64,000 nucleotides of DNA from Bilabrum cf. latius (lineage: Eukaryota): NCBI GenBank assembly GCA_965178125.1, contig OZ237763.1, positions 310,001-374,000 on the forward strand, written 5' to 3'. The first letter of the stretch is position 1. Each line of letters starts with the position of its first letter. Both the position numbers and the translations under genes were made by a program. This document shows positions 12,574 to 64,000 of this stretch, piece by piece. The notes beneath the pieces are model-generated. The model was given only the letters and a program-made list of their open reading frames with translations, was not told where the DNA came from and searched no databases.

Positions 12574-13491
12574 ATGATCGCCAGAAAGAAGGCAAAGGCT
12601 GCTGCTGAAAAGGCTGCGAAGGAGGCCGCGGAGAAGGGTAGTGCTGGAGGTTAGTTCTACCATTCTAGAGGTGACGTGTGATAAGCTGATCTGAATCTGA
12701 GAACGACAACATTCAATCTGCATGTGGCAGTAACTTTTATGTAGTACGATAGAATTAGTCCCTTATTTTCACTATTTCCTTGCAGCGGCAACCGGAGGCG
12801 CAGGATCTGCCTCAGGGGGTGCTGGAGGTGGGATTTCAGTGCTTGGACCGTCGTCTGCTTCGGGCGCAAAAGTAGCTGCGACCGCAGCCGTGGTAACGGC
12901 CTCTGCAGGTGAATTGCGAGTTCGGAAGGGTGAGGGTGTGCATATTTGACATCGGAGGGACGCTGATCCGCTCGTTTCGAGTTTTACTTCCCAACAACAG
13001 AATTTGCCACACACTTTTCGGTTGAATTCCCACGCCTGCGCTTCGCAGATTTGGCGGAACTTGACATAGGAAAGAATGCAAAGGTAGAATTCCCGGAAGG
13101 CTCGAGCAAGGTCATGCACCTGCGGGTGACGATCGAGCCCACGGACGGCTTGTGGAAGGGCGGCAAGTACGAGTTCGACGTGAATTTCAAGAAGAGCTAC
13201 CCCCACGACCCGCCCAAGGTGACCCTTGCGACCCCTTGCTACCACCCTAACCTGGACAAGGAAGGTGGGGTGTGCATCAATATCCTGCGAAAGGACTGGA
13301 AGCCCGTGCTCGACCTCAACTCGGTGATCTACGGCATGGTGCTGCTCTTCGAGGAGCCCAACCCGATGGATCCTCTTGACATCAAGGCGGCCGAGCTCAT
13401 GAGGAAGGACAAGGCCAGCTTCGAGAGGAACGTGGAGTCGTCCATGAGGGGCCGATCTGTCGACGGGAGGACCTTCCCGAGGTTCAAGTGA
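12574..13491 (+). CDS. UBC12: NEDD8-conjugating E2 enzyme Ubc12/UBE2M, 3 exons (12574-12649, 12786-12929, 13049-13491), ~220 aa
   Basis: The spliced product reads SAGELRVRK-D-LAELDI...YHPNLDKEGGVCINILRKDWKPVL...LFEEPNPMDPL. This matches the Ubc12 signatures (LRxxKDxxEL; HPNIDxEGxVCLNILREDWKPVL) with the catalytic Cys intact. GT-AG introns at 12650-12785 and 12930-13048 keep the frame. Stop codon is TGA. Confidence 0.92.
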
Positions 13492-14031
13492 CCTTCGCTG
13501 TGGTGGTGCGGAGCTGTGTAGGATGGTGGTCACTGAATGTTGACATGCGTCGATGGTCGAGTGTTCTCAAAATACGCAAAGCGTTGTACAATTTGTTGTG
13601 GTGCCACAACACAGTTAGTCGTTTCCATCGAAATAAGCACAACTGCACGACACGGGCCCGGCTCCACTGACACGGATCCGGAAACATAGCGCTGTGGCCA
13701 TTGCGGTTTGGGCACTGCCATCGGCAGCGAGTTGTCTACGAAGTACGATCTGCCAGCAGTGCTAGTACTCTCGCTGGAATCGACCGCGGGTAGATCTGCC
13801 TCCAGATCCATCAATTACGGAACAGGCCATCACTGTTTGCGCGGCGCCAATTCAAACGGCAACTGCACACGTTCAAGGCCCTTTCGTGAGAAATAACTCC
13901 AACTGTCGCCGACCAAGTCTACAATAATCATTTGCGCCGGATATTTTCGGACGACTGCGTATCTTAACCGCACCAGCATTCATTTTCAGGTGTGTTTTGC
14001 AGTCACCCTACTTTCCAGCAGATTTCAAGCC

Positions 14032-17000
14032 ATGGCAGCCACATGTCGATTCTTCTCAAGCAAATCATACAAAGAGTCGGAAAAGGCTTGTAATGAGCTT
14101 ATTCCCCGTCCAAGGCCTGACTTTAGCGAAGAAGAAGTACTAGTAAGGGCGGTATCACTAAATTGCAGCCAGCCAGCAGTATTAGATTCTCTAGAATCTA
14201 AGTTGCAGCCAGCCAGCAGTATTAGATTGTCTGTTTTGCATTCAAGTTGCCCATCATTGTAGGTCTCCGGGGGTACCCTGCTCCATCTTGCCGCGAAGCA
14301 CTGCGACCCACGACTGTCCGAGCTCTTTATGGCTAAGGGTGCCACATGCGTGACCAAAGACGACGTGAGCGTGCATCGTTGTTTCGCGCACTTCAAGCTG
14401 ATTTAATAAAGCATCGCCGTATCTCGGTTAAATTTTATTACCACCTCGTCACCCTGCACCGTCCCCACAGAAAGGTCGTACGCCCATCCATTTCGCCGCC
14501 AGCCGCGGGCTGGCCCGCACTTGCACACGCATGATGGCCTCGGCCATCAAAGACCTCAAGCGGCGGAACATTCCCGTGGGCGCATTCCTACAAGATCACG
14601 TAAGTTTGGAGCGGGGCCATACTGACCCACGGGTGGTGCTGCACATATCGGGGGGCGCTGTGGCACTTGCTCACCCAGTGCCTGCCACCGGAAAAGAAGG
14701 TATATTCATTAAACTGTTCCGCCACTCATGCACCGGATTGTTTTGTGTCTGCCCGCTGCATTCGAACCTTGCTTCTCGCCGCAGCATGGCCGCACGCCGC
14801 TCCACTACGCAGCAGCCTTCGGATACCCCAAGACCTGCAAAACCATCGTGGATGTCTACCGCGCTGGGATGCGGGGCAGCGATGCCGAGGAGGACCGCGA
14901 CGATTTTCTCGACTTAGAGGACGAGGTGAGCCTGTGTGGATTCTCTGGTTGACTGAGCCTGGGGAGGGGGTCGGGTTTTTCAGTGATGTACCAGTGCCAT
15001 TGCTGCAACCAAGGCCCGGCTGTGGAAGTACCGATACCTCCAAACGGCACATCGTCCTGCATTACTATGTACAGCACTTGATGCCTCCATCATTATTCGC
15101 TGTGCTACATAAACTCTTTCTCTCTGCAAGATTGGGTAGTGTGTGCTTTGACTCAAACATTTGGTATTCTCTCTGCAAGCAGCGAGGATACACGGCCTCA
15201 GCCGTTGCTGCCATCAGGGGCTTCCCCGAGGTGTTCTCCGCGCTGAACAGCCACGGTGGTGAAGACGCGCTTATGAGGCTGACATTCGGGGTGAGAGACT
15301 CGTGTACCGCTCATCATAATGCGAACATGGCACGTTGTGGGTGCGGGACTTCGCCATGATCATGGGTCTCGGAGCTTCGGCACGGCCAATCAAACAGCAC
15401 TATGGATTGCACACAGCTCCTGAGCTCCCGGATTGACGTTCCCCGCAGCCGAACGGCCAGTCTTGTTTCCATGTAGCCGCGGAGAAAGGCCACCTGGGCA
15501 TCGTAAAACTCGCGCCTGGCTCACATGAAATGCTGGGTCACCGTGCAGCAGTGAGAAGACCGGCCCTTTGTGCAGACTAGAGTATCGCAGCAAGACTTGG
15601 CCGCCTTCCTACAAGGAATATATCATTAACGCCATGGAAATGTCATTTTGATGCGCAGGAAGGCGGTACTATGCTGCAGTTCGCGGCGCAGCAGGGGCGG
15701 CTGGCCGTGGTGGAGCACCTGCTTCACGAGGCACGTAGACTTGGCTTTCCACTCGAAGACCTGGTGGACGATGTGAGCACAAACTAGCCACCAAGATAGT
15801 AGTCGTTGAATATGGACGATTGGCAGCCGCTCAGCTAGCTGTAATGTCACCGAGAGACTCATTCGGGAACAGAACACCAGGTTATGGAGGCTAATGAATC
15901 CAGCCACAATCGATTGTTGTTCCCACCGCAGCACGGATCTACGCCGCTGCATGCCGCATGCATGAGCGGTCATGCCAAGGTCTGCAAGGCTCTCATCGAA
16001 GCTGGTATTCCGGTCAACACTGTGCAGCGCAAGGTAAGGCTATCCGCGGTACAGCTTGTCGCTGCCACAGAACCCATTTTGTAGACGAGCACAAAAGAAG
16101 AGGAAGAAAGATTCCTGTTGAACTTTCCAAACACAATTGGCTGACTGGATTTCGTGTCCTATTCACCGCAGCACGGCGTGCTTGCCCTCCATATGGGCGT
16201 CCACTGGGAGCGAGTCGTCGCGTGCGGGGTGCTGATCGCCAACGGAGCCGACCTGAGCCACCGCAATTTTGTGAGGTCGTGGCCACGAACCGTGCCTGAA
16301 TTTATCGCATTGTTTTATCACTCCTTCTGTACCGTCACTAGGATTTTCTCTTCTAGCTCGCAGAACGGGGAGTTCCCGATGGACGAAGCCGAGCCGGGCT
16401 CGATCCTGCGCCTTGCACTCGAGGAGGCGGGCATGGACAACGACAAGTGCGTCGAGCTTCTGCTCGAGTATTCCAATCCGGAAGATGCGGCCAAGCTGCG
16501 CGATCTCGTTCGGGATGACCGCCGACGGAAGGCACTTCTTCGGTTCAGGTGCGCTGTCGATGTTCCAGATGCACCCGCCAAAATTGCGACCGCTGTGCTG
16601 GATGGGGATAAGGAAACGGTGCAGAGGTATAATGGAATCTTCTCGGGCGATGGCGACTTTCTTAAGGCTTGCTGTACCCTGCCAAAAGAAGCAGCGGCAA
16701 GTTTTGAGGCTGTCCAGTAGGACTCAGGACCATCGGCAGGTGAAGGGTTCGGTTTCCAAGCCGGGCCCCTTGCCATTGCCGTCTTGCGCAACGACTGTAC
16801 TATCACGCGCTCCCTCATTGAGCGAGTTGAGGCCTTCTGCGACGTTGATGCTCAATTAACGAATCCCATGTCGCGGCGGTCCCGGTTGAGGCGCAAGCTT
16901 CTGCTGGATTTTATCACCCGCCAGTCGGTTGCTCCTGTCGGCTGCCCCAGCAAGCCTGGTGACGCATTCACCACGACTCTGGTAGAACTGTGCTGGATGA

Positions 17001-18034
17001 TGAAGGGAAAAGGCAGTCGCAGTGACGCAGCCGCAGAGGTGCTAGATTGGATGCGGAGCTGCGTGGTGCCCTTTTCAGTCGACGATTTCCAGACTGCAAT
17101 CGAATACGGGTGCGCGGGCGGCGACACTGCAAGCAGCAAGGCGGCGGCTTTGATGTTCAAGGACGCGAACATCAGCGCCAACAGGTGGCAAGTCCTGCTG
17201 GCTGAGCCATTAACCGCCTCACAGTCGCCAAAAGCCGCAGCAAAGACCAAGTTCAAGCCGAAGTCAGGGAGGCGAGGACGGCGTGGGAAGAGGAGGGGCA
17301 CCGCATCTGTGGCTCGTGCTGCTTCCGCTTCTAGTGGCGCCGGAAGTGGCACGAAGTCGTACATTAAGCCGTCCAGCAGGGAGCTGCCCATCGACATTCG
17401 GGCCACGTTCACGCCCCCAACTGTCCGCTGCTCGCATTTCGCAGACCGGGCCTTCCAGAAGGGGAATTCGCTGCGTGCTCGTTTGGAGTCCGTGCGTAAG
17501 CAGGCCAAATCTTCGCTGATGGGATAGCTTGCCGATTGTCTTGTGCATCGCACTGCAGGTATGCACCCCTATAAACTGGCTGCTGGCAAAGAGATTACCC
17601 AGGACCAGCCTGACGAGGCGGAGGATCCCGTTCAATGCGATGACACGGAGGCTGACTTCTCCCCGACAACCGACGTGAGTCCATTCGAACTTGACATGCA
17701 CGGGCCCGACGAATTCCTCGTGTTCCCGAGCGACGAGGAGGACGTGTGGCAGTGCTCCTTCAACACGGAGGGCACCAAGTCGAGGCCAAACGAACTGCAT
17801 CGCGCGCTCACGCCCGAACGGCAGAAAGACAGGGGCATTGGAACGCAGCCCATGTTCCGCGAGATGAGCGGCTGGCGGAGGTTCGACGGGACACCGGTCG
17901 AATTGGGCAGCAGGAAACCGAAGCAGGTCGATGGCCTGTAGGCGCTGGCGGCCGCGATGGCAGAAGTGAAAGGTGTGGCGCCTGGGTCGATGTCGACAGT
18001 AGATGCTCTATTCAGCTTGATGGATGGCTTCTGA
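14032..18034 (+). CDS. Ankyrin-repeat protein (~858 aa), 9 exons: 14032-14142, 14263-14364, 14471-14599, 14785-14925, 15183-15290, 15659-15772, 15932-16033, 16172-16270, 16364-18034
   Basis: Successive exons translate as ankyrin units: SGGTLLHLAAK, KGRTPIHFAAS, HGRTPLHYAAA, RGYTASAVAAI, EGGTMLQFAAQ, HGSTPLHAACM, HGVLALHMGV, NGEFPMDEA. All are flanked by phase-0 GT..AG introns. The last exon joins ORFs 16154, 16784 and 17543 (same frame) through TAG at 16718, 17525 and 17939, and ends at TGA 18032-18034. Confidence 0.8.
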
Positions 18035-18246: not shown

Positions 18247-21200
18247 TCACCGTGCACGGTCAACAAACTCCCAGACCGCATCCCAACCTTCCGCTTGCTC
18301 TTTACGCTGCTGCCGATGCCGCAGAGCTGGGAGGGGCTATTCTCCGAATGCCTCAACAGAAGTAGAACCCCCACTATCCGGCATTGGCGGCGACAACATC
18401 GAGTCGTCTACTCCTGCTCCCAAACCCAATCCACTCGGGTCCATACCTGCTCCAATCCCGCTCGAGGCAGGAGCGGCGACGCCCAGTAGAGTCGCGGCGT
18501 GCCTGCAAGCTCGCCTGAGCACGGCTTCCAGCTGCTCCTTATACCTCATCTCTGTGTAGTCCACGGTGCCCTCCAGCCCTCGAATACAACGCACAAGCCA
18601 CACACCGATGGCATCCACCGGATCATCGCCGATCGCACCGTCTGCAGCTTGAAAAGGCGAAGCTCCGCCAGCTCTTTTCGGCGGGGAACTCGATCCAGAT
18701 CCTGCATGGGACAACCACGCCCCTATGCTGCGCATTAGTCCGGCGGACTGCACCCCAAGGACGGTGTGACACGCTGCGATGCGCACTTTGAAATAAGGCG
18801 CCTGAGCCGCTGCCTCGAGGCTGGCTTTCATCGCCAGTCCCAGCCACCTTGGTGCGATCGGTGCTGGCGAGGGCACTGGCCCACGCGGTGCGATACCCTC
18901 AATCGCCACACCAAGCGCGTAGCACGCGTTCCAGCGCGTCTTGGCAGAGTGCTGGTCGTCTGTGAGACACCTGGCCAGAGTCATGAAGGCCTCCGGGATG
19001 TGCTTGGGCACCGTGACGCACGCCGTCCTGGACGAGCCCGGATCGCTTGCACGTCTGCTCACTGGAGACCCGTGGCCCGCTGAAGCAGCCGGCATCCCGG
19101 GGGCAGCTTTGCCCGTGTCTTGTATGCTGGCATCGGCACCCATGCTAGCGGTGCTATGGATAGAGAGCGCAACGCGAGCCGCAGCACCCAGCGCCCTCGT
19201 TGCAGCACTCACCACCTTATCTTTCTCTCCGCATGCCACTAAAAGAGCCTCCACGCACCGGTTCACCATGTCTGAACCGATAACCGTGCCGATGCTGCCG
19301 TACCAGTCAGGTGATTGCCCCTCGGCTAGTTTGGCAGATGAGGCATCGTGGCTGTCTTTTTCGTCTCCCGTGGCTCCGCTAGAGGCACTTGTGCCTGCCC
19401 CTGACGTGCTGAAATCGTTTGCTCCCTTGTCCTCTGCCCCTTCGTTGCGCGCAGTCGGCTCCAGCAGCACGCAGCCCAGCGCCCAGCTGGCTCTCACCCG
19501 GACCTGCACCCCTTTGTCAGTCAGGCCGTCCAGTGCGGCCTGCGCCACGGACCGAAGATCTCCCGGTCTAGTGCCTGATTTGCGGGAGCAGAGAGTTCCA
19601 AGCAAATGAAACCCAGCCGCTCGTGCGGCAGATACGGCGTCATCAACGGCGGCCAGCCCCAGCGCGATCGGCGCGGATGGCTGGGTCTGCGTGTCACCAG
19701 CAGACGACTTGCTGGACTTCGCAGCGTCTGTCTTGGGCACCCCAGCAGCCCGTTGCTACGAATGCTGCTCCCAGTCTTCCGGTAGCACGTGTGCAAGGCA
19801 CTACAGCGCACACGTGCGTACTCCCGCGGCTGGGTCCTCGCACGCCTGAGGCAACAAGGAGCCGAGAGCCTGCGCCATGGTCACAGGGCCGGGGGACGCC
19901 TCCGAAGCTGGATCGGTATCACCTGCACCGACAGATGCGCCACCAGCTGATCCAGCTGATGTGCGTCTGCTGTCTCCCCCGTCTGTAGTCTTGCCTTCCT
20001 GCAGCACGGGCAAGGCAGCACCGAGCGCCTCCGTCACCGCAGAGTCAACTCGCTTGGCCGCTGCCAGGTTAGGCTGCAGCTCCAGCCTCCGTCTAGCAGC
20101 CGCTCTTGCCCTCAGTACCTCTTCAAGGACCCTCAGAGCAGAAGATCGAATGCCAGCGCTAGAATCCTCCAAAGCAGTGCGGATGATGCTACTGATGTCG
20201 CGGGGCCAACGGCGCTTGGACGCGAATGCCGCCGTGTGGTGCCGGGCCACTCGGGCCAGCAGCGTAAGACCTTCCTATCGTATCTGCTGCGCCGCATCCG
20301 GCGCAGAAACGCAGCGAATCACGGCATCGAGTACCTTTTCTCCCACTCTTGCCGCATCCCCCACCACGCCCATCGGCTGCCCGGCCGCAGGCTATAGCAG
20401 CACCCGTCGAACCTCTGATGGCCCCGCCCTCGCGCCCACAAAGCAGGCCATGCACTGCAGTGCAGCGACACGGACCACGGGCGCATCGCTGCGGATGTGC
20501 CTGAGGATGCAAGGCGCCATGGACCGGAGGAGGGAGCCCCCCTCCAGCAGTCGATCGTACGGAGTTGCTGCGATCAGCGCACTTGCCGATCGAAGCACCA
20601 GCTGCACCTCTGTGGAAGATGGTGAACCGGGTGCTTGCACAGACGTAGACGAGCCGCTGCCTCTGTCTGCCTTGCTACTACTGCCTGACCTGCCCGGCCA
20701 CCTGCCGCCCACACCGCGGCGCTTGCCCGACTCTGCGCCTGACGCTGAGGACCAGCCGCCTCCTGCTGCAATGCCAGCTGACGTGAAGCCGTCAGCACCG
20801 CTCCCACCTCTATCGGAAGCAGAGCCTGCATCCGAGCCCACCCTTGAGCCACGCCTGCGGCCTCGCAAGCTATCACCCGGCTGCGCCGAGGAAGCCTCAA
20901 GCGCAGCTACGTTGAGAGGACCGCGCAGGAGAAGGAAGCATACACCCCTGTGCAGCTCCACCACGATGGCCTTGGTTCGGTCTGACGCAGTTGTCACACC
21001 AGCGAGCGCAGCTCTCCGGGCACGAGCCCGTGCGATGGCGCTGCGCCCCTTGGGACCAGCAGTGGACAAGCCCACACCGTCGCCGTCGTCATCCTCCACG
21101 TCCATGCCGAACGACTTTGGGATCAGCTGCATTGTGACTTCCAGGGGCAGGCGATCGGCCTTCGTGTGACGAGTGAGATGCGATGCGGTAGAGTCGGCAG

Positions 21201-51700: not shown

Positions 51701-54700
51701 GCTACTGTCTCCAGGAGCGCCCACACACACATCGGGATCCCCGTCGCTGTTGAAGTCGCCCATCCCAGACACAGATGCACCAAACCAGTCGCCCGCCGAC
51801 AGCATGCCGCTGAAGCCAGACTCGCCGGTGGCAATGCGCTTTGTGATGTCATACACGGACCCGTTCGTCTGCAGAAACAACAGGAATGCCGAGCCCCGCC
51901 CGTCCTGCGCACCGGGCGCACCCACAAGCAGGTCGATGAAGTCCACGTTGTTGCCGAGTCCACGCACTGCGCTGACCGCCAGGCCAAAGCCATCACTGGG
52001 CTCCACTGATGGATGGATGCTCGCGCCCGTGTGCTCCACGAGGCTCAACACCTGCGCGCCCGCACGAGAGCCGTTCGCCATCAGCGCCACAAAGGCCGAC
52101 CCATTCGACCCCAGGACCAGGTCGATGTACCCGTTGCCATCGAGGTCCCCGAGCACGCCGACGCTGCGACCGATGCCGCCGAACGGTCCGGTTCGGTTGG
52201 CCAGGTGTACCCGACTCTGCTCCAGGATGCCGGTAGGCACGAAGGCGCCGGGGTATGGACTCGCAGAGACAGTGGACGATGGGCTGGTGCTTGGCGTGGG
52301 CGAGGTGCTTGGGGGGCTGCTGGTGCTTGGTGTGGGCGAGTTGCTAGGGCTAAGACTTGGGCTCGGACTCGTGCTTGGACTCGGACTTGTGCTCGCTGTC
52401 GGCGATGGCGACACGCTTGGTGCCAGCACTGTCTCCGTGCGGAAGATATACACCGCGCCGCTGCCGCTCGAGTTCAAGGCTCCTCCATGCCCGGGTGCAC
52501 CGACGAATGCATCAAAGTCACCGTCCCAGTCAAAGTCCACCACGCCCACACCCGAGCCGAATCGCGCCCCCGCCTCCAGCTCATCGCCCAGATCACCCGA
52601 GTCGTACCGTCTGCTCGTGGTGCTGCTGTTGCCCACGATCGTCACTTGCGTCACGTTCCATGTGCCATTCAGACTCACGGCAAACACCCTGCCCACGTCG
52701 TCATCCTACCCCCTGCCCCAACCAGGAGACCCCACGTACACCTCCACGAACCTGTCCCCGGTGTGGTCCAGCGAGACCTCCACAGAGGCGCCGAAGGCCT
52801 CTCCGCCGGACGGACCGAAGCGCGCAGGGGGCCGCAGCACCTACACAGTCTCCAACGCGTGCCCGCTGCCATTCACACGAACCATAAACACCGCACCAAG
52901 CCCTCCTGGGTCCTGACCTGATGCACCGATCGCCACCACGTCCTCGCTGCCAGGTACCCCAGACACGCCAGACCCGAACCGCGCTCCCACATGCGACATG
53001 TAAGCAGTGCCAACCAGCCCCTGCTGCTGGCTGATCTTCCTAGAAGATACCACCCAGCCAGTGCTGTCCAGCCCAAGCAGCCATACAGCGCCCGCGCCCG
53101 ATCCCACCCCGCTGCTACTGTCTCCAGGAGCGCCCACACACACATCGGGATCCCCGTCGCTGTTGAAGTCGCCCATCCCAGACACAGATGCACCAAACCA
53201 GTCGCCCGCCGACAGCATGCCGCTGAAGCCAGACTCGCCGGTGGCAATGCGCTTTGTGATGTCATACACGGACCCGTTCGTCTGCAGAAACAACAGGAAT
53301 GCCGAGCCCCGCCCGTCCTGCGCACCGGGCGCACCCACAAGCAGGTCGATGAAGTCCACGTTGTTGCCGAGTCCACGCACTGCGCTGACCGCCAGGCCAA
53401 AGCCATCACTGGGCTCCACTGATGGATGGATGCTCGCGCCCGTGTGCTCCACGAGGCTCAACACCTGCGCGCCCGCATGAGAGCCGTTCGCCATCAGCGC
53501 CACAAAGGCCGACCCATTCGACCCCAGGGCCAGGTCGATGTACCCGTTGCCATCGAGGTCCCCGAGCACGCCGACGCTGCGACCGATGCCGCCGAACGGT
53601 CCAGTCCGGTTAGCCAGGGGTACCCGGCTCTGCTCCAGGATGCCGGTAGGCACGAAGGCGCCGGGGTATGGACTCGCAGAGACAGTGGACGATGGGCTGG
53701 TGCTTGGCGTGGGCGATGCGCTTGGGCTACTGCTGGTGCTTGGTGTGGGCGAGGTGCTTGGACTCGGGCTCGGGCTCGGAGGCACCCCACCCATGAATGC
53801 AATGAACAGCGCGCCTCTGTTGGAGCCTCCAGTGTCGTCCTAGCTTGCGGCAAAGACCAGATCAGTGCGGCCGTCCCCGTCAAGATCACCCAAGGGAGTG
53901 CCGGCTGTGAAGAGCGTACTGCTTACCGCAATACCGTTCAAAGCCCCGGTGCTTGGTTCGATCTTTGTGATTGATTTGACTGCATCTGCCTGGGAGCCTG
54001 AGTTGAGATAGAATACGTACGCCGTATTCTCAAGGCGAGCTCCGACGAACAGGTCCTCGTTCCCGTCTCCGTCCATATCACCAGCGTTCCGGACCGGAAA
54101 CCCCAGCTCCGATCCCAGTCCGATTGCACTGATTGGCAGCCCCTCCTCGCCGTTCTCAATTGTCTCGGGGGGCCCAATAGCACCAGATGCGTTGAGCCGC
54201 ACAATGTGGAGTCGGTCAGCAGACAGCTCAGCAATGACTAAATCCACCGGATTGCCAGCAGACCGCGGGCTGATGGCAGCAATTGAGAATCCGATGGAGC
54301 TGACACCGGACGGCATCCCTTCTCCGCTCGCCGGCGAAATTCGAAAGTGGTTATGAATCGTGTCGTTGCCGTTCATTAACAGCACAAAGACTGCACCAGT
54401 GTCGGGTGCGCCTGCATCAGTGCTCGGCGCCCCGGCGGCAATGTCATTCAAGCCATCCCCATCGAGATCTCCCAAGCTACCCGAGATCGCACGCCCGAAT
54501 AAATCACCGGAGCCTATGGTGGAAACAGGCATGCCACCCACACCGTTTCCGATCTCCTGCTAATGTGCCACGGTACCATTTGGAAAAATTCGAAGCACCA
54601 ATACTGAACCAGCGTTGGTAGCGCCTGCATCGCTCTAGAACATACCTACCGCAATTCTCGGCAAGTGGCCGTCATCACCGGAGGGCTGGTCCAGCCGCAC

Positions 54701-56455
54701 AGGGTCGGCTCCAAATCTCTAGTCAGGTACTGTGGGGCTGAAGACCAGCCCACCTTCTAGCGCGCTTATCTTCTGGTAGGTCTTGACCGTGCCGTTCCGA
54801 TGCATGAACATGATCATGAACGACCCGCTGTTTGACTGATCGTCATCATCGCCGAAAATATGCACTGCAATGTCCTGCACCCCATCCCCGTCCACATCGC
54901 CGATGGAGGATAGCGATTCACCCATAGTATCATCGTCCACAAGCACGCCATCGGGCAGTCCGCCCACTCCGCTGGCAATCTTCTACACCCTAACAGGAAC
55001 CCCAGCAGCAGCTGGCGCAGCCGAAGGTGAAGGACTCGGGAGAACGCCGCCCATGAGCGTTACAAAAATGGCCCCGCGGTTCTCCCCTCCCATATCGTGG
55101 AAAGATTGCGTCAGGATGAGGTCGGTGCGGCCATCGCCATTGATGTCACCGATCCCAGTGCCTGCTCCTAAATAGTCTCCGCTCGTGGCCTTTCCCATCA
55201 GTTGCGACCACACGAAGCGGCGAAGATCACGAACTGGGTCTACAGAGGGATCATCGTTCATGTACAGTATGTAGGCAGCCCCATTTGAGCCCTGATAAAA
55301 CGGTGAGCCGACTAGCAAGTCATCAATGCCATCGCCATCCATGTCTCCTGGGTTGGATACAGTAGAACCAAAATCACCGCTAAATGACCCAGATGGCACA
55401 CCACCTGACACCGGAAGGCCGCCAGAGTTACTCTTGATAACTGAAATGGTGCCCCCGACGCTTCCGTTAGCAGCTAAAGGCACCAATAGGATAGTGTTGG
55501 ACTTCTTTACGCCCACCACTAGATCAACGGGGTGGCTCAGAGGATCGCGAGGAGGTAGTGCAGTGAGGCTGCTGCCGACTTGAGTAATGGCCGGGACCAC
55601 GGTGTCAAGACCCATTCCCGGGGCCTGGGATAAGACCACGTGCTCGCGAACCGTGTCATTCCCGTGCATTAGTAGTACAAACACGCCACCATTGAGCGTT
55701 CCACCCAGGTTTGCCTGAGGGACCCCGACTGCCATGTCGTTCAGTCCATCGCCGTTGATATCCTTCACCTGGGTGGTGATACCAGCGCCAAACTAATAGT
55801 TTGCCCCAAGGGTACCACTGGGCAGTCCACCCGCACCATTGTGGATCTCAGTCTGGAGCAGCACTGTTGCGTTCGGTGACATCCGGAGTACATACAAGCG
55901 GCCTGCGTTGCCGGCATCCAGGTCGTTGCCCGGCTCCCCCACGACCATCCGAGGGAGATGGCCTTCTTCTCCATTCGGCTGATCCAAGCGAGATGGCTCT
56001 GCCCCTAGCTGATCGTTGTTTCCTCCAGCGCAGCTCAAGCCGTTCCCACACCGAATCTCGCGGTATTCCCTGACAGTGCCGTTCCGGTGAAGGAAAAACA
56101 CCAACACCGCGCCTGCGTTGGTATCTGGCAAGTCGGAGAAGTGGTACCCGACCGCTACTTCATGCACACCATCGCCGTCGAGATCCCCCATGTCGCCCAC
56201 GTACGTGCCAAACTATCCGTAGTTAGACAAGCTGTTGGACGGGAGCCCGCCCACCCCGTCTGCTATCCTCGTGACGCCTGCGATGTTCCCGACTGCTGCA
56301 GGGCTGGGCGAGCAACTGGGGGTCACGGATGGCGTCGGGCTTGGAGATTCAGCGACTAGCAGTCTGTCCATGTGGGCGCCCACATCTGGCTCAACAGCGG
56401 CAGCGTGCCACAACAGTGCGCTGCATCCCATTACCAACAGCACAAGACTTGGCAT
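39752..56455 (-). CDS. Polycystin-1 (PKD1/REJ)-like giant receptor, ~5,567 aa, apparently single exon: signal peptide, many FG-GAP repeats with Ser/Pro/Thr linkers, Ig/Calx-beta-like modules, REJ-like region, EGF-like domain, GPS motif, ~9 TM helices
   Basis: About twenty ORF fragments from 56213 to 39752 share one frame. I counted about 46 in-frame TAGs and no TAA or TGA in the gaps read. ATG at 56455 begins MPSLVLLVMGCSALLWHAAA. Motifs: GDLDGDG FG-GAP loops; LDGTSSADLD...IQWDC and NAPPSSGHLEV...AVGWTD...LPLSFRFGY (REJ-like); CSGHGSC...CTCSSGWHGRAC (EGF); CATTHLSDF (GPS); HMWGSIF...TRPQRL and YGILF...SWVIASLVSFAIDIVLQEPL (polycystin-1 TM-region motifs). Stop codon is TGA at 39752-39754. Confidence 0.85.
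50904..53757. repeat. Near-perfect 1,413-bp (471-codon) intragenic tandem duplication of an FG-GAP propeller module
   Basis: Sequence starting at 50904 recurs at 52317, and briefly at 53730. ORF-track pairs are offset by exactly 1413 (51428/52841, 51460/52873, 51262/52675). Only a few substitutions separate the copies. Confidence 0.95.
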
Positions 56456-59221
56456 GGCAATGGTGTCGTTGCGACCTTTGGTAGAGCTGCTGCAAGTTGC
56501 CAATAGGCTATTCATCCTAATCTCTGGTGGACCGTGTAACCCTAGGTGTTGCGCGGATCCTATGTCTACTGCGGTGGATACGACGGTCAATCGGGCATGG
56601 CTCGAATACAGGTCGGGTACTGCAACGCACAACTTTGCCGCGCCAAGCTTAGATCCATACAAATCAATAATGCACAGAAGGACGACGACAGCGGATATAC
56701 GGCGGGAAATGGGGTAACGTACAGCCTTTTGCTAAGGTCGCGGCGATGGTTGACCACACACTGCATGCAAAATGATAACCTCCGGTCATCAATTGAGCTC
56801 ATAGAAGGTGGAAAATAATAACACCAAATGAATGATCACCACGGTCTTTATTGTGAATCAACAACAACCTTGAGTTGCATTCGACTATGTGCCGAATCCC
56901 TCAAAATGTGGGTTATCGGCCTAATTTCGATAAGTGGGGGCTAAAACCGCACGATCGCATGGATTATCTACACAATAGCATATTTGTCTCACTAAAACGA
57001 TTAATGAGCGCCGCGTGATCCTGTATCAGGACAGCTATAGGCTCCAAGAGTTGACTGACAACAGGTCGATATCGTTTGTGAAATTTGTTGAAAGTGTCGA
57101 CACGCCCTCCTGTACCGGGTGCGCAAGTACAAATATCTGTAGTGAAACTATCTTTTAGGGCAAACCCCCAACTGTTCCTCTGTACCTGCACCAGGGAATT
57201 GCGAGGGAAACCCTGGTGAAGCTAGAAGCTGTGATCTTCATCTTCTCAATTGTGTCCATTCGACTAATCACGATTGTTGATGAATTTGTGTAGCAATGCT
57301 CATTCCCTAGCCAAATTATACGTGTCAGCAGCGATCTCAAGTGTGTGCGCTGCGCTTGCTCTCCCAGTGGTAAGCGCAAAGCTTCTTATGCTCCCTACCC
57401 AGCATGGGACACTGGCAGCCGCACTGCAACATTTTGCGACCATGAGCACCGCACCAAACGTCGCACGTGCTGGCTTGCCGCGAGGCAAAAACGTTTCCTC
57501 TAACAAGCTACCCACAAACTCACGCGTGCACTGACCTGCTCAGGCTGTGCTCCTTCTATTACACGCGCGCGGCTTGCTGCCAGATGTTGGCTTCGAAACC
57601 TCCCAGCTGCTGCCGAACGTGCGTTGGCGGTACCTGGCTGTTCCTATCGCTTGGCCACAGAATGTGAAGCACCCGGGGTGAATTACAGCTACGGATCGGC
57701 CGACCTGCCATGATTCACACGATGCTGAGGCTCAGTAGCCACTACCGCATCGTGGGCTGGCACAGAGTCCTTGCGCCAAGCCATGCCTGGAGTGCGGAAC
57801 AGCCTGATGTCTCGGCTGCTCACGTCCATTCACTTGAGCCGGCTGTCCAAGTTGACGCTGACGTAGTTTGTACACCGCTCAATACCAGCGTTGCGCCACG
57901 GGCTGCAGGCTAGTCTGCACTCGCTGCTGTCGGTGTCACCCGCGCTGCCTTCAGCCGCATGGCCACCCCCATGGGGTGGGCCCGGCGACAGCCGCACCGG
58001 AATTTCGCCCCTGCAGTCCCGCCACCGGCAGCCATTCCTTTTCTAATTCATTGTCATCATTGATACCAGGCGGAATTCTAGTAGTGCTCTTGGGTTGCCT
58101 CTCAGGCTTGTGCTTAGTCAAGCAGCCATCCTAGCACAGTATCCTCGCATAGACGACGAGCCCACCAGCAAAGAAGCCACCCGTGTGAGAAAAGCAAGGT
58201 CGCTCTATCAATCATACGCAGGCGGGCGATTTGTCCCTTGCACTAGAACAATTGCTCCAGCGTTGCCCCGTTCGCACAGGGACCTAACCAGCTGGAGCGG
58301 CGGATTCTCTCAAGAGATAGTCTCGACTGGAAACGGTAAGACCTGGGGTCAGGCATGGCTGATTCCGAGTCATGTGGGTCCTGGTTTGTGTTCCCGAACC
58401 CTAGCGCAGCAGTCGATGCGTTGCGGCTGGCGCCGCGTACATCATGCCACTGGCAGCGGCAACAGAAAATCCTCCTGCCCCCGGCCCCGCGGACTCACTG
58501 GGCTTCACCCCGAACGACTGGTTTTTCCCCGGTCCATCTGAATGTGGTATTCCATTTATACTACAAATGTACGCACAACTTTCCCAGTTTTTGCAAGAGG
58601 TCCTTTGTAGCGTGTTGAACTTTCCCAGTACACGTGCAGCACGTCGACTGGCCTCGTCGCTGCATGGCTTCCTGTTCCCGTTCCCCGCCCTAAGGTCATT
58701 GTGCGCTGTTCCCTGCATCGCCACTATGACCCTTTCCTCCCAGCTTGCACGTGCCGGTCCTGGCCAACCTGCCATGCGTTCCATCCATCCACCTGCCTGT
58801 TGGCCTCTTCTGCGCGCCGCAACCCGCTGCCACTCGCGTCTCCCTTGTGCCTGGCACCTGGAGCCGCCTCCCTCCCGTTGTGTTCTCCCTATTGACACCG
58901 AACTGTCGTCGCCTGTGCTGGTGGCCCCTCTTGTTCCTCTCTGCCTCGTCGTCGCCCATCTCGCTTCAACCAAGTACATATTGCATGAACGGAGCACCTG
59001 ACCACGGTCGCACATCAGCATAGAACAGTTATAGAATACGTATTGTATGTGCTTTTATTGTTGAATGGGTGCTTTGTAGGCGAGATCAGGGGTGTGTGCC
59101 GTCCACGTGCGGGGTCAGAGCAATGCAGTGCAGTCAGGTTTTGTTGTGTGTGGTTTCTTATTTACGGGTTGGTCGGTGGGGTCGTCATCCACCAACTGTT
59201 CACAGCAAATTCACCGAAGCT

Positions 59222-62200
59222 ATGAACCTGTTCGCTTCTATCGGTGCCGCAACGACCATTCTTGCGTCATCATGCTATGCGTTGGACATTGCGCGATTCG
59301 ACTTTGAGCTTCCAACATCGGAGGCTGGCTGGACTGCAAGCTTCAACTACTATGACTTAAATCGCGCCCCACTGTCGTTTCAACCGGCACTGGCTATTGC
59401 ATCTACCCAAATGGGTTACTATAGCTCATTTTCAGTCGTTGGTGAAGGCATTGAGCAGGCATTTATCCCGGCAACTTCGCTGGCAGTCGTGGCGCAGCCC
59501 AATATGACATTCGAAGGGGCTGACGGCCCGTCTAGTGGCAGTTCTATCGGCGAAAAGAATATGGTTGCAAGCCCAAATGGGCGATATGTAGCCGTGTGGT
59601 CGAAAGTGCCTGCGTCCTTGTCAGGTTTGGATGCGCAGCACTTCGGCTTGTTCGACTCCCAAGGGAGAAGTGCTGCTCGATTCGGTAACAACGCCATTGG
59701 CGAGGGCAGCTGGCCAGCAGGATACTCCAACAGCGTCTCCGGTAAATATGGGGTTCCAACGTGGCTAAGTAATAACGTCGTGTGCCATTCACTGCAGTTC
59801 AACCTGCCTGGGGGCCAGACTGGCTACCGGGTGGGATGCTGGGACCAGCGTCTCCCCGCAGGCAGCCAGCTCGTCATCGTGGGCAACTCCACGGACGCGG
59901 AGGGACTCGTGGCCATGGGCACTGACAATCGCATGTGCATGACGGCGAGGCCGCACGCCTCCGCGCACGGCAGGGAGTACTACTGCATTGACATGAGCAC
60001 TCCCTCTGCAGACCCGGTCGCCTTCCTCGTCGCTGATTTGTTCCCCGGGCCCAGCTCCAGCGTGTCGTCGACGTTTTACCAATACGCTCTCCCCGCCGGT
60101 GAGGACCACGTTTGCATGGATTTCGAGCGGCGATCCGGCAACCGGAACTACTTCACCGAGATGGGTTGCTACCAGTGGTCCACTGGGCGCTTCATCATCA
60201 GCGACCTGTTCGTTGGCAGCAACAAGAGGGAATACCGCGGGTTCGTCAGCGGCATGTTCATCTACGGCTGCATCCCTGGACAACAAAAGCTGTGCGCGAT
60301 GAACCTCACCACCGGTAACACCACGCAGATGGTGGTGCAGCACCCCGCCAACGTCGGCACATCGGACAGGCTCAACAACGAGGCCTTCATGCTGGGCGAC
60401 GTAGTCCTGGCGCCCTACGACAAGCGGCCGGGGAACTCCATCCGGATGGCAGTGTGGGTACCCTCCGCTGGTAGCGACTCGTACGATCTCGCGAACGGCA
60501 CCGGCCGGGAGCGAGAGAACAGCTTCGTCACGGCATCCGCGCGACTCGGCGGGCAGCGCATCCTCTTCGGGCTGGGGAACTTCTTCAGCGGCACCGAACC
60601 CAACCGAGCGGTGGTGGTGGACTGCAGTGACCCATAGGACGTCAGGCTGCTGCCTATCGCTGGCTCGTGGGAGTCTGCCCTGGACCAGCCGGGCCAAAGC
60701 ATTGAGTGGGAAGACGCGGTTGCCCTGCCGGGGGTGGGCCCGGGAGGCGAGACCGGCGCTGTTCTGGTGAGCAGTGTGTCCATGTTCTTCTGGAACGGCG
60801 ATGTGGCTGAGGCCGGCATCACCCTGGCCCACGGAGAGATCAACGTCGTGCTACCAGTGGGTCCCTTCGGCGGAACTCCTGAAGGTATACTCTACGGGAT
60901 AAGGAACAGCTACAATACCTTCGAGCTGACCACCGTGGAACTGCCCGACCCAGTTGCGTTGCAGGCTCGCACGCCGCAGACTGTGGATCCAAGCGGGGGC
61001 ACGCTGAGCACTAGCAGCAACTGGGGCAGAGCAACCCCGCCGCTGGTCAGCAAACCGGATGGCCAGCTGTGCTACACCAAGATTTCCGTGGCAAATGGTG
61101 GCAGAGACAATATGTGCTTCGATCCAGTGTCCCTGGCTGCAAACACCTCCGGTGATATGCCAGCCTCTCCGTACGAGCGTGCATCGACCCAGGAGTTTGA
61201 CACCGATTTGGTCGAGTCCACGTTTTTCGTGGTGTCGAGCTTGCCAGGAGCTTCCGTGATGCTGGTAGACGTAGATGGCGACGATCGCTTGTACTTCTTT
61301 GATGGCTCTCACCGGCCGTACATGCTGGGTCCGATTGACCCAGACCGCCGCGACGAGATCGAAGAGGATGACAATCCACCCGCTGTTGTAAACGGAGGCC
61401 GGTACCTGTGCTTCAAGCACGCGGGGCGACTTCCTGAAGACGAGGAAATGGTCATGTACGACATGCACACGCACAACTGGACCGTGTCTGACATCACGCC
61501 GGGCGATGACACGTACACCTTCGGCATGTTTACCGCATTCGACCGCTACTGCATCTTCCAAGCAGAGCACCCCACCTCAGGCGGGGAGTGGTTCTACTGG
61601 GACTCCATGGACAGAGAGGCAGGACCGCAGCTGCTTGAGTCCTTCAGCGGCAGCGACGGGGTGTATCTAAACGTCCTCGACAAGGGCAAGATTGCGACCA
61701 CAGAGACCGCCTCGACCTGGTCCATCGTGTACAACTCCTACGATGATGACAAGGAGTGGGTCGTGGTGCTGGAGAGGCAGGCAGACGGCAGTCTGGCACT
61801 GACGCACTCTGCAGCCATCAGCGACGCCGAGTTCTCGATGGCTGTGCCTTTGCCTGGCAGCAACCAGACTGTGCTCACGTACACGGGCGGCAACCCACAA
61901 TAGCTGCGGGTGCTCAACTCGACCATGGGTGGCGGAGAGCTGGTCGACATCTCTGCACCGAGCGGAATGGAGGTCGACGAAGTCTCCGGCTACAATTCGA
62001 CCCACCTTGCCGCCTTGATGACCAACTCCACCAACAGCGATGCAACTGAGATGGTCTGCCTTATCAACGTCGCCACAGGGGCCTGCGACCTGCAGCTGGG
62101 ACCAGTGCTGGGGAACAGCGCCACTGGACTCACTGCCGTGCACAACGGATACATCTGCCTGCAGACCTCCCCTGATTCCTCTCACATCTACTCCCGGGAC

Positions 62201-63286
62201 CTGGCCTGCTGGCCCGGGCGCGGCAACCGCATCATCACGATGGACGTGGTACCAGAGGGCCCCGTGGAGGACTGGCAGGAGATCGAGGGAATCATGGGGC
62301 GATTCGACGAGCAGGAGGGAGTGATTGTTTCCATGAAGCACCCGATCTACGACGAGGGCCTCTACTTTGTGCAGCTGGTCGCCCCCTCACCGAGCCCTTC
62401 TCCCACCCCATCGAGCAGCCCCACGCCATCCGCGACTCCAAGCCCATCACCAACGCCGAGCGTCAGCAGCAGCCCCAGCACCTCGCCCACGCCGAGTGTC
62501 AGCAGCAGCCCCAGCACCTCGCCCACGCCGAGTGTCAGCAGCAGCCCCAGCACCTCGCCCGTGCCCAGCCCATCAACGAGCGAGCTTCCGGCAGCAGCCG
62601 TCAGCACGGTACCGCGCGGTAGACGCAAGGGCAGTACCCCTGCAAGTTCCTCCTCTACGTGCGCCCAAGGAGCCTCCGTGGAGACCTCGCAGCTGCTTCT
62701 GCAGACTACCGTGTCGGTGGCTGACGCCACGGCAGCCGAGGTGGGCTGCGACAACGCAGCGACGGTCGTGGCCGCCGCTGCTGCCGCTGCCAGCATCCGA
62801 GTCGACGAGGTGACCTACTGGCTGCAGAGTACCGAGTCCGGGGGCACCGAGCTGGTGCTGCAGATACCCGTGGAGACCAGGGAACAAGGGGAGCTGATCC
62901 TGCAGGGGATCGAGACGGTGCTGGGTGACCCGGCGCAGACTGCGGCGCTGCTGGATTCAGCTCCCGCTGGGGCCTCTGTGTCTGCGTGGGACCGCAGCGA
63001 CGGGGACACGACGGCCATTCTGGACTCGCCGTACCTGGAGGACGGGGAGGACGACGATGGGCTTGATCTATGGATCATCGTGGTGATCGCTGTGGTGGGG
63101 GCTCTGGTTGTAGGCGGGGGACTTATGGCATGGTGCTGCTGCTGCGGAGGAGGAGCGTCCAGGGCCAAGGTGCATAAAGATGAGAATGCAAAGAACAAGG
63201 GCGATGCCAGTGGGAAGAGGCAGGCAGGGGCCCCGGCTGGGGGAGCGGCTTGGACTGGCGCTGGTGCTGGGGCGCAGGCCGTGTGA
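59222..63286 (+). CDS. Type I membrane protein (~1,354 aa): signal peptide, Cys-containing beta-propeller repeats resembling ELWxxDGT repeats, Ser/Pro/Thr stalk, single TM helix, Cys4 motif, short tail
   Basis: ORFs 59069, 60734 and 61910 are in one frame joined by TAG at 60635 and 61901. ATG at 59222 begins MNLFASIGAATTILASSCYA. Repeats include HGREYYCID...LVADLFPGPSSS, VSDITPGDD and FQAEHPTSGGEWFYWD. The TM segment WIIVVIAVVGALVVGGGLMAW is followed by CCCC. Stop codon is TGA. Confidence 0.8.
62452..62559 (+). repeat. 36-bp coding tandem repeat x3 (PTPSVSSSPSTS) in the mucin-like stalk
   Basis: acgccgagYgtcagcagcagccccagcacctcgccc occurs three times in tandem. Confidence 0.85.
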
Positions 63287-63634
63287 GCGCATTGCATGTG
63301 GCCAAGACTAGAAAGGGCTAGGCCAGGCGGGCCTAAGAGGCTTTTCTTTTTGGGTTTAATCTCCGTGGTGACCATACTCTCGGGTGCACAATATGAGCAC
63401 CTGCGGCTTGATGGCCTACTCAGCAGTGCATGGCCTTGTTGCTAAAACTTAACAATCTCTACCAACTTGCGTGGTGCTTGCGTAAGCCGTGCGCCACTTT
63501 TTCCTTTGGGTCGCGGTCTTCCGTCAACCACACACAAGGGCCTGAGGGTTTGACCGCCTTGTTGATTCACCCTGCGATACATACATGCAGTCATGCACAA
63601 GTTGACGAATAAATTTAACCATTCATTCTATCTA

Positions 63635-63991
63635 TCATTTCCCATCCTCCCCGTCCTGCTTGCCCCCGTCCTCCCCCTTCCCTTCGTCCATGCCCAGCGC
63701 AGAGCTCACCGCCTCTGAGGTCGCGTCCATCGCCCCGGCCAGGCCCTCCCGTCGCACCTCCTTCCCCTCCGGTACGATAGCCTTTGCTGCCGATTCGCGA
63801 GTGGCGTCCGACTGCTCCTTGGTGTAGTCTGCCGCGTCGGAGGCAGTCTGAGCCACGGCGTTGTACGCGTCGGAAGCGGCCTGGCCCACGGCGCTGCCTA
63901 CTTCGCTGACTGCACCCGATGCCTTGTCAGCGGCGCCTTCAGCGTGCTGCATGGTTTTACTTTTAGTGTCATGGTCTGATGCGGAAGCCAT
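63635..63991 (-). CDS. Small hydrophilic Ala/Glu/Asp/Lys-rich protein (118 aa), LEA/stress-protein-like
   Basis: Clean ATG-to-TGA ORF with GC3-rich codons and internal repeats (AVGQAASDAYNAVAQTASDAADY). An AT-rich 3' flank follows. The family call is based on composition only. Confidence 0.6.
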   Translation of the reverse strand: MASASDHDTKSKTMQHAEGAADKASGAVSEVGSAVGQAASDAYNAVAQTASDAADYTKEQSDATRESAAKAIVPEGKEVRREGLAGAMDATSEAVSSALGMDEGKGEDGGKQDGEDGK

Positions 63992-64000
63992 GATGTGTGG

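What the first reader, a model, noticed from the sequence alone, without database searches (positions are those of the whole stretch)
12574..63991. UAA and UAG appear decoupled: TAA is absent from coding frames and every visible gene ends in TGA
Seen: all eight terminators are TGA (13489, 18032, 18247, 33654, 33863, 39752, 63284, 63635). TAA never occurs in frame except through the indel at 34641, even though CAA is used regularly. Known: in the common ciliate-type code (table 6) UAA and UAG both encode Gln, and split meanings are rare. Inference: UAA is either a seldom-used stop or nearly unused. That would require an eRF1 that rejects UAG while reading UGA (and perhaps UAA), plus a tRNA-Gln(CUA) with no UUA partner.
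Basis: partly seen in the sequence, partly recalled or inferred. Interest (0 to 1): 0.85.

Follow-up and report, generated by a model that had tools for sequence, protein, structure and literature searches.

The report
TAG-only glutamine code, TGA stops
An unidentified GC-rich eukaryote reads the stop codon TAG as glutamine, never uses TAA inside genes, and ends all eight visible genes with TGA; this kind of genetic-code change is rare but already documented.

Summary
In 18,388 codons from ten gene models there are 106 in-frame TAG, 0 TAA and 0 TGA. All 8 of 8 gene ends are TGA. If TAA shared TAG's meaning, 17 to 28 in-frame TAA would be expected (P 1.5e-7 to 1.3e-11). TAA is common in off-frames, introns and spacers.

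Spliced contigs from three runs carry the TAGs unedited, so these are expressed nuclear genes.

TAG means glutamine. In the closest homologue at each site, Gln stands at 10 of 16 TAG sites. Ordinary Gln codons match Gln at 32 of 49 sites, the same rate. Leu stands at 0 of 16. An 83%-identical homologue has Gln at 6 of 8 TAG sites.

So UAG and UAA are decoupled. This is the NCBI table 15 pattern, already described for Iotanema spirale and two phyllopharyngean ciliates. In those organisms UAA is the main stop; here only TGA is seen.

Whether TAA is a rare stop or unused cannot be settled from eight gene ends (95% upper bound 31%). No tRNA gene, no eRF1 gene and no whole genome were available.

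Verdict: a new member of a known kind, organism unidentified.

The parts
1..11388 (-). Giant ORF (3796 codons inside the window; its 3' end lies beyond base 1) with IPT/TIG and FG-GAP domains. It has 26 in-frame TAG and 0 TAA. The likely signal peptide sits near codon 256, so the first 3 TAG may be 5' UTR.
   Evidence: RNA contigs cover parts of it
12574..13491 (+). NEDD8-conjugating enzyme UBC12 gene. Three exons (12574-12647, 12784-12928, 13048-13491). No TAG or TAA. It ends in TGA at 13489-13491, at the position where human UBE2M ends.
14032..18034 (+). Ankyrin-repeat gene of ten exons with nine GT..AG introns between 14143 and 16363. It has 892 codons, 3 TAG and 0 TAA, and ends in TGA at 18032-18034.
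18247..23977 (-). HEATR6-like gene (DUF4042 and HEAT repeats), main exon. It has 10 in-frame TAG and 0 TAA, and ends in TGA at 18247-18249. One RNA contig covers 18203-23977 without a single difference.
23978..24100 (-). 5' intron of the HEATR6-like gene (GT..AG on the minus strand). The ATG at 24051 used by plain ORF listing lies inside this intron.
25242..33656 (+). 2804-codon ORF without a Pfam match. It has 10 TAG and 0 TAA and ends in TGA at 33654-33656. Two of the TAG (26364-26366 and 26370-26372) sit inside a poly-Gln run: CAA TAG CAG TAG CAG CAG CAG CAG.
33863..38747 (-). Gene with a weak CLU-domain match followed by 13 kinesin-light-chain-type TPR units of 126 nt. It has 8 TAG and ends in TGA at 33863-33865 if the frame after the 2-nt gap is read.
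34641..34643 (-). The only in-frame TAA in the window. It was created by the loss of 2 nt (TACTATAAC became TACTAAC) in one TPR unit. The five units downstream remain intact in the shifted frame.
39752..56515 (-). 5587-codon ORF with FG-GAP propellers, a REJ domain and C-terminal membrane spans. It has 46 TAG and 0 TAA and ends in TGA at 39752-39754.
44519..48118 (-). The 1200-codon stretch (residues 2800-3999 of the REJ protein, 18 TAG) used as the query that showed TAG aligning with Gln in homologues.
58985..63286 (+). 1433-codon ORF for a membrane protein with Ser/Pro-rich repeats and no Pfam match. It has 3 TAG and 0 TAA and ends in TGA at 63284-63286.
63635..64000 (-). The last 121 codons of a gene that starts beyond the window. 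It ends in TGA at 63635-63637, and the next codon is TAG.

Best explanation
The window is nuclear DNA of an unidentified, GC-rich (about 60%), intron-bearing eukaryote. Its cytoplasmic code has one change: UAG is an ordinary glutamine codon, making up about 14% of Gln codons. UGA terminates translation and UAA is not a sense codon.

Shown here:
- TAG stands in frame in expressed, spliced genes.
- TAG aligns with Gln in homologues at the same rate as CAA and CAG do.
- TAA is absent from about 18,000 codons.
- TGA ends 8 of 8 genes.

Inferred from published work on the same kind of code (PMC5304391, PMC11687900):
- UAG is decoded by a tRNA-Gln with anticodon CUA. This anticodon cannot pair with UAA, which is why the two codons can differ.
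- No tRNA with anticodon UUA exists.
- eRF1 has lost or weakened UAG recognition but still reads UGA and, most likely, UAA.

On this reading UAA is a functional terminator that is seldom chosen. The genome's G+C-rich third positions (GC3 0.66) favour TGA, and eight gene ends are too few to show a rare stop.
For: Counts: and one search give 106 TAG, 0 TAA and 0 TGA in 18,388 codons, against an expected 17 to 28 TAA (P 1.5e-7 to 1.3e-11).

TAA is common outside coding frames.

Expression: contigs of runs X5, X6 and X7 join across 13 GT..AG introns, while the DNA run X1 does not. One 5868-nt contig carries all 10 TAG of the HEATR6-like exon with 0 differences, so there is no editing or splicing of TAG.

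Meaning of TAG:
- Of 153 homologues (E <= 1e-3) of a 1200-residue stretch, 26 HSPs are at least 45% identical. The best homologue has Gln at 10 of 16 covered TAG sites and Leu at 0 of 16. True Gln codons match Gln at 32 of 49 sites, and true Leu matches Leu at 82 of 110. The log-likelihood ranks Gln first, with the next residue (Lys) 15.4 lower.
- An 83%-identical 503-residue homologue has Gln at 6 of 8 aligned TAG sites and ends exactly at a ninth TAG site.
- 5 of 26 homologue C-ends project onto TAG sites (1.2 expected), and 8 of 21 project onto TAG or Gln.
- Two TAG lie inside a poly-Gln run.
- TAG sits at the TPR column that is Gln in 5 of 6 KLC1 repeats shown.

TGA as a stop: 8 of 8 gene ends, and the UBC12 end coincides with the end of human UBE2M.
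Against: No gene in the window ends in TAA (0 of 8), so 'UAA still terminates' rests on precedent, not on data from this organism.

No tRNA gene, no eRF1 gene and no whole genome were available, so the mechanism is untested.

Only 64 kb was examined, dominated by long, fast-evolving surface proteins.

At 6 of 16 TAG sites the best homologue has another residue (Asp twice; Thr, His, Pro and Ser once each).

The one relative found for the HEATR6-like protein has Leu at two TAG columns and Gln at one.

A crude neighbour-context test first ranked Leu above Gln. The Q-minus-L score was -15.7, a value reached by only 4.7% of true-Gln samples. Split by gene, that test lost its power or reversed.

The homologous fragments carry no names, so they could be paralogues or alleles instead of other species.
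Confidence: 0.8

Rival explanations
1. The ordinary ciliate-type code (NCBI table 6, UAA and UAG both Gln), with TAA merely avoided because third positions are G+C-rich.
For: GC3 is 0.66, and A-ending codons are the minority in every pair.
Against: Every other NNA codon is in regular use: CAA 134, GAA 232, AAA 83, TTA 52. Even at the lowest A/G ratio seen (0.16), 16.9 TAA are expected against 0 found (P 1.5e-7). TAA is as frequent as TAG in introns, 18 against 19.
Confidence: 0.02
2. UAG = Gln as above, but UAA is an unassigned codon: it is read neither by a tRNA nor efficiently by eRF1, so UGA is the only working terminator.
For: 0 of 8 gene ends use TAA and 0 of 18,388 sense positions do. 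In the described UAG-only codes UAA is the dominant stop (PMC5304391, PMC11687900), so its total absence here is a difference.
Against: Eight ends allow a TAA share of up to 31%. No case of an eRF1 that reads UGA but not UAA without UAA being decoded came up in the four searches or the passages read (43, 71). The only in-frame TAA, at 34641, tells nothing either way.
Confidence: 0.12
3. UAG encodes leucine (as in the rhizarian exLh and the TARA phyllopharyngean ciliates) or some other residue, not glutamine.
For: The HEATR6-like relative P0007 has Leu at TAG columns 543 and 1417. In internal repeats of the FG-GAP modules, TAG columns 241, 892 and 2249 face Leu or Phe. The unstratified context test ranked Leu first.
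Against: In close homologues Leu faces 0 of 16 TAG sites and Gln faces 10 of 16. Leu ranks below the eight best residues, the eighth of which scores -27.3. The 83%-identical homologue has Gln at 6 of 8 sites. The paralogue substitution test within the REJ and TIG proteins prefers Gln over Leu by 4.7 log units.
Confidence: 0.03
4. The in-frame TAG are not translated. The genes would be pseudogenes or assembly errors, or the TAG would be removed or edited in the RNA.
For: One real frame break exists, the 2-nt gap at 34641.
Against: The only interrupting codon across 18,388 codons and seven separate genes is TAG, with no TGA and no TAA. RNA contigs carry the TAG unchanged and show no joint inside the large exons. 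Domains are intact. The same DNA stands in runs under three labels.
Confidence: 0.01

Closest known systems
Iotanema spirale (Fornicata) nuclear code: UAG = Gln, with UAA and UGA as stops (Panek et al. 2017, PMC5304391; abstract and passages read)
   Same: Only UAG is reassigned, to glutamine, and UAA is not a sense codon. The predicted mechanism is the same: a tRNA-Gln(CUA) and an altered eRF1.
   Different: There UAA is the primary termination codon; here 8 of 8 ends are TGA and no TAA end is seen. Iotanema is known from a transcriptome of an anaerobic flagellate. This window is GC-rich genomic DNA with giant exons, and nothing ties it to fornicates.
Hartmannula sinica and Trochilia petrani (phyllopharyngean ciliates), NCBI table 15 pattern (McGowan et al. 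2024, PMC11687900; passages read)
   Same: UAG is translated as Gln at conserved Gln columns, used as an ordinary Gln codon, and shows no sign of a dual meaning.
   Different: Those are ciliates in which 93.5 to 100% of aligned C-termini end in UAA. Here the stop seen is UGA. The gene structure here (17-kb exons, introns of 93 to 257 nt, 60% G+C) is unlike what I recall of ciliate macronuclear DNA; no call tested this comparison.
NCBI table 6 (UAA and UAG = Gln; many ciliates, hexamitin diplomonads, some ulvophytes, Amoeboaphelidium)
   Same: UAG = Gln and UGA is the working stop.
   Different: UAA is a frequent Gln codon in those organisms. Here it is absent from coding frames (0 against 17 to 28 expected).
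UAG = Leu codes (rhizarian exLh, PMC5304391; TARA phyllopharyngean MAGs, PMC11687900)
   Same: UAG alone is reassigned and UAA is kept.
   Different: The amino acid differs. Here Gln faces 10 of 16 TAG sites and Leu 0 of 16.
TAG-to-Gln recoding in phages (PMC9523058, abstract seen in a search listing) and in giant viruses
   Same: The same codon table (TAG = Gln; TAA and TGA stops).
   Different: Those are viral genomes. This window has spliceosomal introns and cellular housekeeping genes (UBC12, a HEATR6-like gene).

Membership tests
UAG-only stop-to-Gln nuclear code (NCBI table 15 pattern) | UAG occurs in frame in expressed protein-coding genes | tested here: met
   106 in-frame TAG in 7 of 10 gene models. 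RNA contigs carry them unchanged.
UAG-only stop-to-Gln nuclear code (NCBI table 15 pattern) | In-frame UAG aligns with glutamine in homologues | tested here: met
   Gln at 10 of 16 TAG sites in the best homologue, against 32 of 49 for CAA/CAG sites. Gln at 6 of 8 sites in an 83%-identical homologue.
UAG-only stop-to-Gln nuclear code (NCBI table 15 pattern) | UAA is not a sense codon | tested here: met
   0 TAA in 18,388 codons against 17 to 28 expected. The frames were defined with TGA as the only stop.
UAG-only stop-to-Gln nuclear code (NCBI table 15 pattern) | UAA functions as a terminator | tested here: inconclusive
   0 of 8 gene ends are TAA. The 95% upper bound on its share is 31%.
UAG-only stop-to-Gln nuclear code (NCBI table 15 pattern) | UGA functions as a terminator | tested here: met
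   8 of 8 gene ends are TGA, and there is no in-frame TGA. The UBC12 end matches the end of human UBE2M.
UAG-only stop-to-Gln nuclear code (NCBI table 15 pattern) | A tRNA-Gln with anticodon CUA is present and none with UUA | not testable with these tools
   No tRNA gene in the window, no Rfam match, and no whole genome held.
UAG-only stop-to-Gln nuclear code (NCBI table 15 pattern) | The eRF1 N-domain is altered at positions that read the third base of UAG (for example the GTS motif) | not testable with these tools
   There is no eRF1 gene in the window, and no query sequence was available that the rules allow.
NCBI table 6 (UAR = Gln) | UAA is used as a Gln codon alongside UAG | tested here: not met
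   0 TAA against 106 TAG in frame.
UAG = Leu codes | In-frame UAG aligns with leucine in homologues | tested here: not met
   0 of 16 sites and 0 of 8. Only 2 Leu columns appear, in one distant relative.
Ambiguous codes without a dedicated stop (Condylostoma, Blastocrithidia, Amoebophrya sp. Kv) | All three stop codons occur in frame | tested here: not met
   There is no in-frame TGA or TAA. TAG occurs as close as 29 to 30 codons before a stop. Amoebophrya Kv is AT-rich, with 58% of its in-frame stops being UAA (PMC12005148, passages read).

The most novel reading that the evidence does not exclude
UGA is the only functional terminator of this organism, and UAA is a truly unassigned codon that is neither decoded nor efficiently released. 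That would be a nuclear code caught in a codon-capture state, between the standard code and table 6. A related possibility: a GC-rich eukaryote lineage with TAG = Gln may be the kind of host implied by the TAG = Gln giant viruses noted elsewhere in this scan.
Probability: 0.12. Interest if true: 0.85.

Novelty: new member of a known kind. Interest (0 to 1): 0.58.

Why it matters
Nuclear codes in which UAG and UAA differ in meaning are few. The papers read here list Iotanema, one rhizarian, a handful of phyllopharyngean ciliates and one oligohymenophorean. They matter because they show that the two codons can be separated mechanistically.

This window adds a case with a different genomic background: 60% G+C, giant exons and spliceosomal introns. 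It also has a different termination habit, since only UGA is seen, whereas the described cases lean on UAA.

Homologous fragments in public assemblies break at the same Gln/TAG positions, so a group of related sequences probably shares the change.

There are two practical consequences. Standard gene callers shred these genes: the longest table-11 ORF here is 791 codons against 5587 with TAG = Gln. Also, DNA and RNA runs of this organism already exist, so the open questions (stop usage, suppressor tRNA, eRF1) can be answered by computation alone.

Tried and rejected
- Whole genome: none is held for this window.
- Sequencing runs: no RNA holder is listed on record. The RNA nature of X5-X7 rests on their spliced contigs.
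- Scan of metagenome contigs with a 20-base TPR pattern: 18 loci. All were chance matches of at most 37 nt in contigs of 54-74% G+C, which I take (not tested) to be unrelated, bacterial-type TPR genes.
- Genome contigs: a protein scan gave 27 pattern matches, none related. A 47-base exact pattern gave 0 matches. An alignment-based scan could not run because no stretch was conserved enough.
- Viral contigs: no match.
- Word-based protein searches:
  - HEATR6-like residues 780-1934: 1 hit.
  - REJ residues 2450-5587: 0 hits among proteins of 3072-9778 residues.
  - CLU part: 1 hit, a Cafeteria roenbergensis hypothetical protein at 30% identity. This is too weak to place the organism.
For the UBC12 exon it gave only generic E2 clusters.
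- Cluster look-up of ten homologues: no useful names.
- Neighbour-context classifier for the meaning of TAG: unstable. It gave Leu above Gln when pooled, and no discrimination or Gln above Leu within genes.
- Paralogue-column tests: TAG sites fall in variable columns. The tests could only exclude Leu weakly.
- Collecting TPR units from the accidental loci: only 2 units found.
- Earlier findings of this scan: nothing on this genome or on look-alike sequence.
- The organism could not be identified. Four paper searches found no description of a GC-rich eukaryote with UAG = Gln and UGA as its usual stop.


Full report
WHAT THE WINDOW IS

The 64 kb are 54-68% G+C. They hold no tRNA gene and no Rfam family.

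Read with the bacterial or standard stops, the window looks like a mosaic of overlapping ORFs, the longest 791 codons. With TAG read as a residue it resolves into a few giant frames of 3796 (open-ended), 1934, 2804, 1368, 5587 and 1433 codons.

Pfam matches are:
- IPT/TIG and FG-GAP in the first frame.
- FG-GAP and REJ in the 5587-codon frame.
- DUF4042 and HEAT (HEATR6-like) in the 1934-codon frame.
- TPR_10/TPR_12 with a weak CLU match in the 1368-codon frame.
- A UBC12-type E2 enzyme and ankyrin repeats in the region 12.5-18 kb.

EXPRESSION AND GENE MODELS

One 20-kb stretch (5001-25000) was laid on contigs of four public runs. Run X1 behaves as DNA: long contigs and no joints at introns. 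Contigs of X5, X6 and X7 join across 13 GT..AG introns of 93-257 nt. Two are in UBC12, nine are in the ankyrin gene, and one each is in the 5' parts of the HEATR6-like gene and the 2804-codon gene.

A single 5868-nt contig of X5 covers 18203-23977 with no differing letter and no gap. All ten TAG of the HEATR6-like exon therefore stand unedited in what is evidently RNA.

RNA contigs reach 79-102 nt past the UBC12 TGA, 103-114 nt past the ankyrin TGA and 44 nt past the HEATR6-like TGA. Contigs cannot prove transcript ends, so this is only a hint of short 3' UTRs.

The spliced UBC12 and ankyrin reading frames contain no TAA.

THE OBSERVATION

To avoid circularity I first cut frames at TGA only. 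The seven long frames carry 27, 10, 11, 47, 3, 3 and 4 TAG and no TAA.

With the RNA-guided models the totals are 18,388 codons, TAG 106, TAA 0, TGA 0, CAA 134 and CAG 502. TAG is 14.3% of Gln-type codons. About four of the TAG lie upstream of likely signal peptides and may be untranslated.

If TAA had the same status as TAG, its expected count is 28.3 using the CAA:CAG ratio (P of zero 1.3e-11). Using the most G-biased pair in these genes (CTA/CTG 0.16) it is 16.9 (P 1.5e-7).

GC3 is only 0.66, and every other A-ending codon is used. TAA is not depleted elsewhere: 108 in the two off-frames of the same genes, 18 against 19 TAG in 1806 nt of introns, and 97 in 6706 nt of spacers on both strands.

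The UBC12 end lies where human UBE2M ends.

The single in-frame TAA (34641-34643) comes from the loss of two bases, TACTATAAC to TACTAAC, in one of 13 otherwise 126-nt TPR units. The units downstream are intact in the shifted frame. I could not test whether this gap is real or an assembly slip.

WHAT TAG ENCODES

This took longer than expected, and the evidence against glutamine is given here in full.

Early internal hints pointed to glutamine:
- Two TAG lie inside the run CAA TAG CAG TAG CAG CAG CAG CAG.
- TAG in one TPR unit faces CAG in sister units.
- TAG sits at the TPR column that is Gln in 5 of 6 kinesin-light-chain repeats shown in the PDB alignment.

Other results pointed away from it:
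- The only relative found for the HEATR6-like protein has Leu at two TAG columns and Gln at one.
- Internal FG-GAP repeats put Leu or Phe opposite three TAG sites.
- A neighbour-context classifier ranked Leu first and Gln third. The Q-minus-L score of -15.7 is reached by only 4.7% of true-Gln samples.
- Stratified by gene, that classifier lost power or turned to Gln.
- A paralogue-substitution test preferred Gln to Leu by 4.7 log units but could not separate Gln from Arg, Ala, Lys or Thr.

The question was settled by an exhaustive HMMER search with residues 2800-3999 of the REJ protein, which hold 18 TAG. It found 153 proteins at E <= 1e-3. Of these, 26 HSPs were at least 45% identical, and all were short fragments from public assemblies.

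Taking the most similar homologue at each position:
- TAG sites face Gln at 10 of 16 and Leu at 0 of 16. The rest are Asp twice and Thr, His, Pro and Ser once each.
- Ordinary Gln codons of the same stretch face Gln at 32 of 49.
- Leu faces Leu at 82 of 110.
- The likelihood ranks Gln first, with the runner-up (Lys) 15.4 log units behind.

A 503-residue member of the top cluster, 83% identical, has Gln at 6 of 8 aligned TAG sites (Asp and Glu at the others). It stops exactly at the next TAG site.

Five of the 26 fragments end just before a TAG site (1.2 expected by chance). Eight of 21 end before a TAG or a Gln. This is what a standard-code gene caller would produce if these related sequences also carry in-frame TAG at Gln positions. 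The alignment shows three of these columns.

I conclude that TAG = Gln. The library holds no DNA, so the codon that ends those fragments was not seen.

WHAT REMAINS OPEN

UAA is clearly not a sense codon here, but nothing shows what it does. Zero of eight ends bounds its share of stops only below 31%.

In every described UAG-only nuclear code UAA is the main stop (PMC5304391, PMC11687900, PMC9161772; abstracts and passages read). Those papers argue that a CUA anticodon cannot read UAA and that eRF1 need only lose UAG. By that logic the most likely reading is a functional but seldom-used UAA stop in a genome that prefers G/C-rich TGA.

The alternative, an unassigned UAA, is not excluded. I give it about 0.12.

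The tRNA and eRF1 predictions could not be tested. There is no tRNA gene in the window and no genome. Scans of the other collections gave nothing usable.

IDENTITY AND NOVELTY

The organism stays unidentified. The only named hit is a Cafeteria roenbergensis hypothetical protein at 30% identity, which places nothing.

It is not Amoebophrya sp. Kv, which is AT-rich and has all three stops in frame (PMC12005148). Its stop usage differs from Iotanema and the phyllopharyngean ciliates, where UAA is dominant.

Four literature searches found no description of a GC-rich eukaryote with UAG = Gln and UGA as the usual stop. Supplements were closed.

The code type itself is known (NCBI table 15 pattern), so I file this as a new member of a known kind. 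Earlier notes of this scan report giant viruses with TAG = Gln and unknown hosts. A cellular lineage with this code is the sort of host they imply, but I did not test any link.

Noticed in passing
window 34560-34700 (minus strand): One unit of the 126-nt TPR array is 124 nt long (TACTATAAC became TACTAAC). This shifts the frame and creates the window's only in-frame TAA. Five intact units follow in the new frame, so the change is either very recent or an assembly slip.
   Followed up: partly
window 50894-53780: A 1413-nt tandem duplication (98% identical at the DNA level) lies inside the REJ gene. It duplicates about 471 residues, including two TAG codons: protein positions 1225/1696 and 1270/1741.
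   Followed up: partly
window 15290-15590: Alternative splicing in the ankyrin gene. Donor 15289 joins acceptor 15448 in run X5 but joins 15590 in run X6.
   Followed up: no
window 23978-24602: The HEATR6-like gene and the 2804-codon gene are head to head, each with a 5' intron (23978-24100 on the minus strand; 24499-24602 on the plus strand). The first ATG of the plain ORF (24051) lies inside the intron, so the true HEATR6-like start is elsewhere.
   Followed up: partly
window 62182-63705 (minus strand): A 507-codon TGA-free frame lies antisense to the 1433-codon gene. It has no Pfam match and mirrors that gene's Ser/Pro-rich repeats, so it is probably not a gene.
   Followed up: partly
proteins P0011, P0161 and other hits: Homologues 45-84% identical to the REJ protein exist only as short fragments in public assemblies. 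The 83%-identical one has CAA/CAG-type Gln at 6 sites where the window has TAG, so TAG density differs between close relatives or alleles.
   Followed up: partly
window 6386-6497 and 5001-6497: Contigs of X1 and X5 show a joint that goes back 1497 nt with 3357 letters between, plus seven clustered differences at 6421-6460. These probably reflect paralogous TIG repeats or a structural variant of the giant TIG gene.
   Followed up: no
window 63626-63646 (minus strand): The last gene ends AAA TGA TAG ATA GAA TGA. A TAG directly follows the TGA stop, and a second TGA lies three codons further on.
   Followed up: no
runs X1-X7: The same locus is held at 79-100% of sampled words by runs filed under three different organism labels and three studies.
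   Followed up: no
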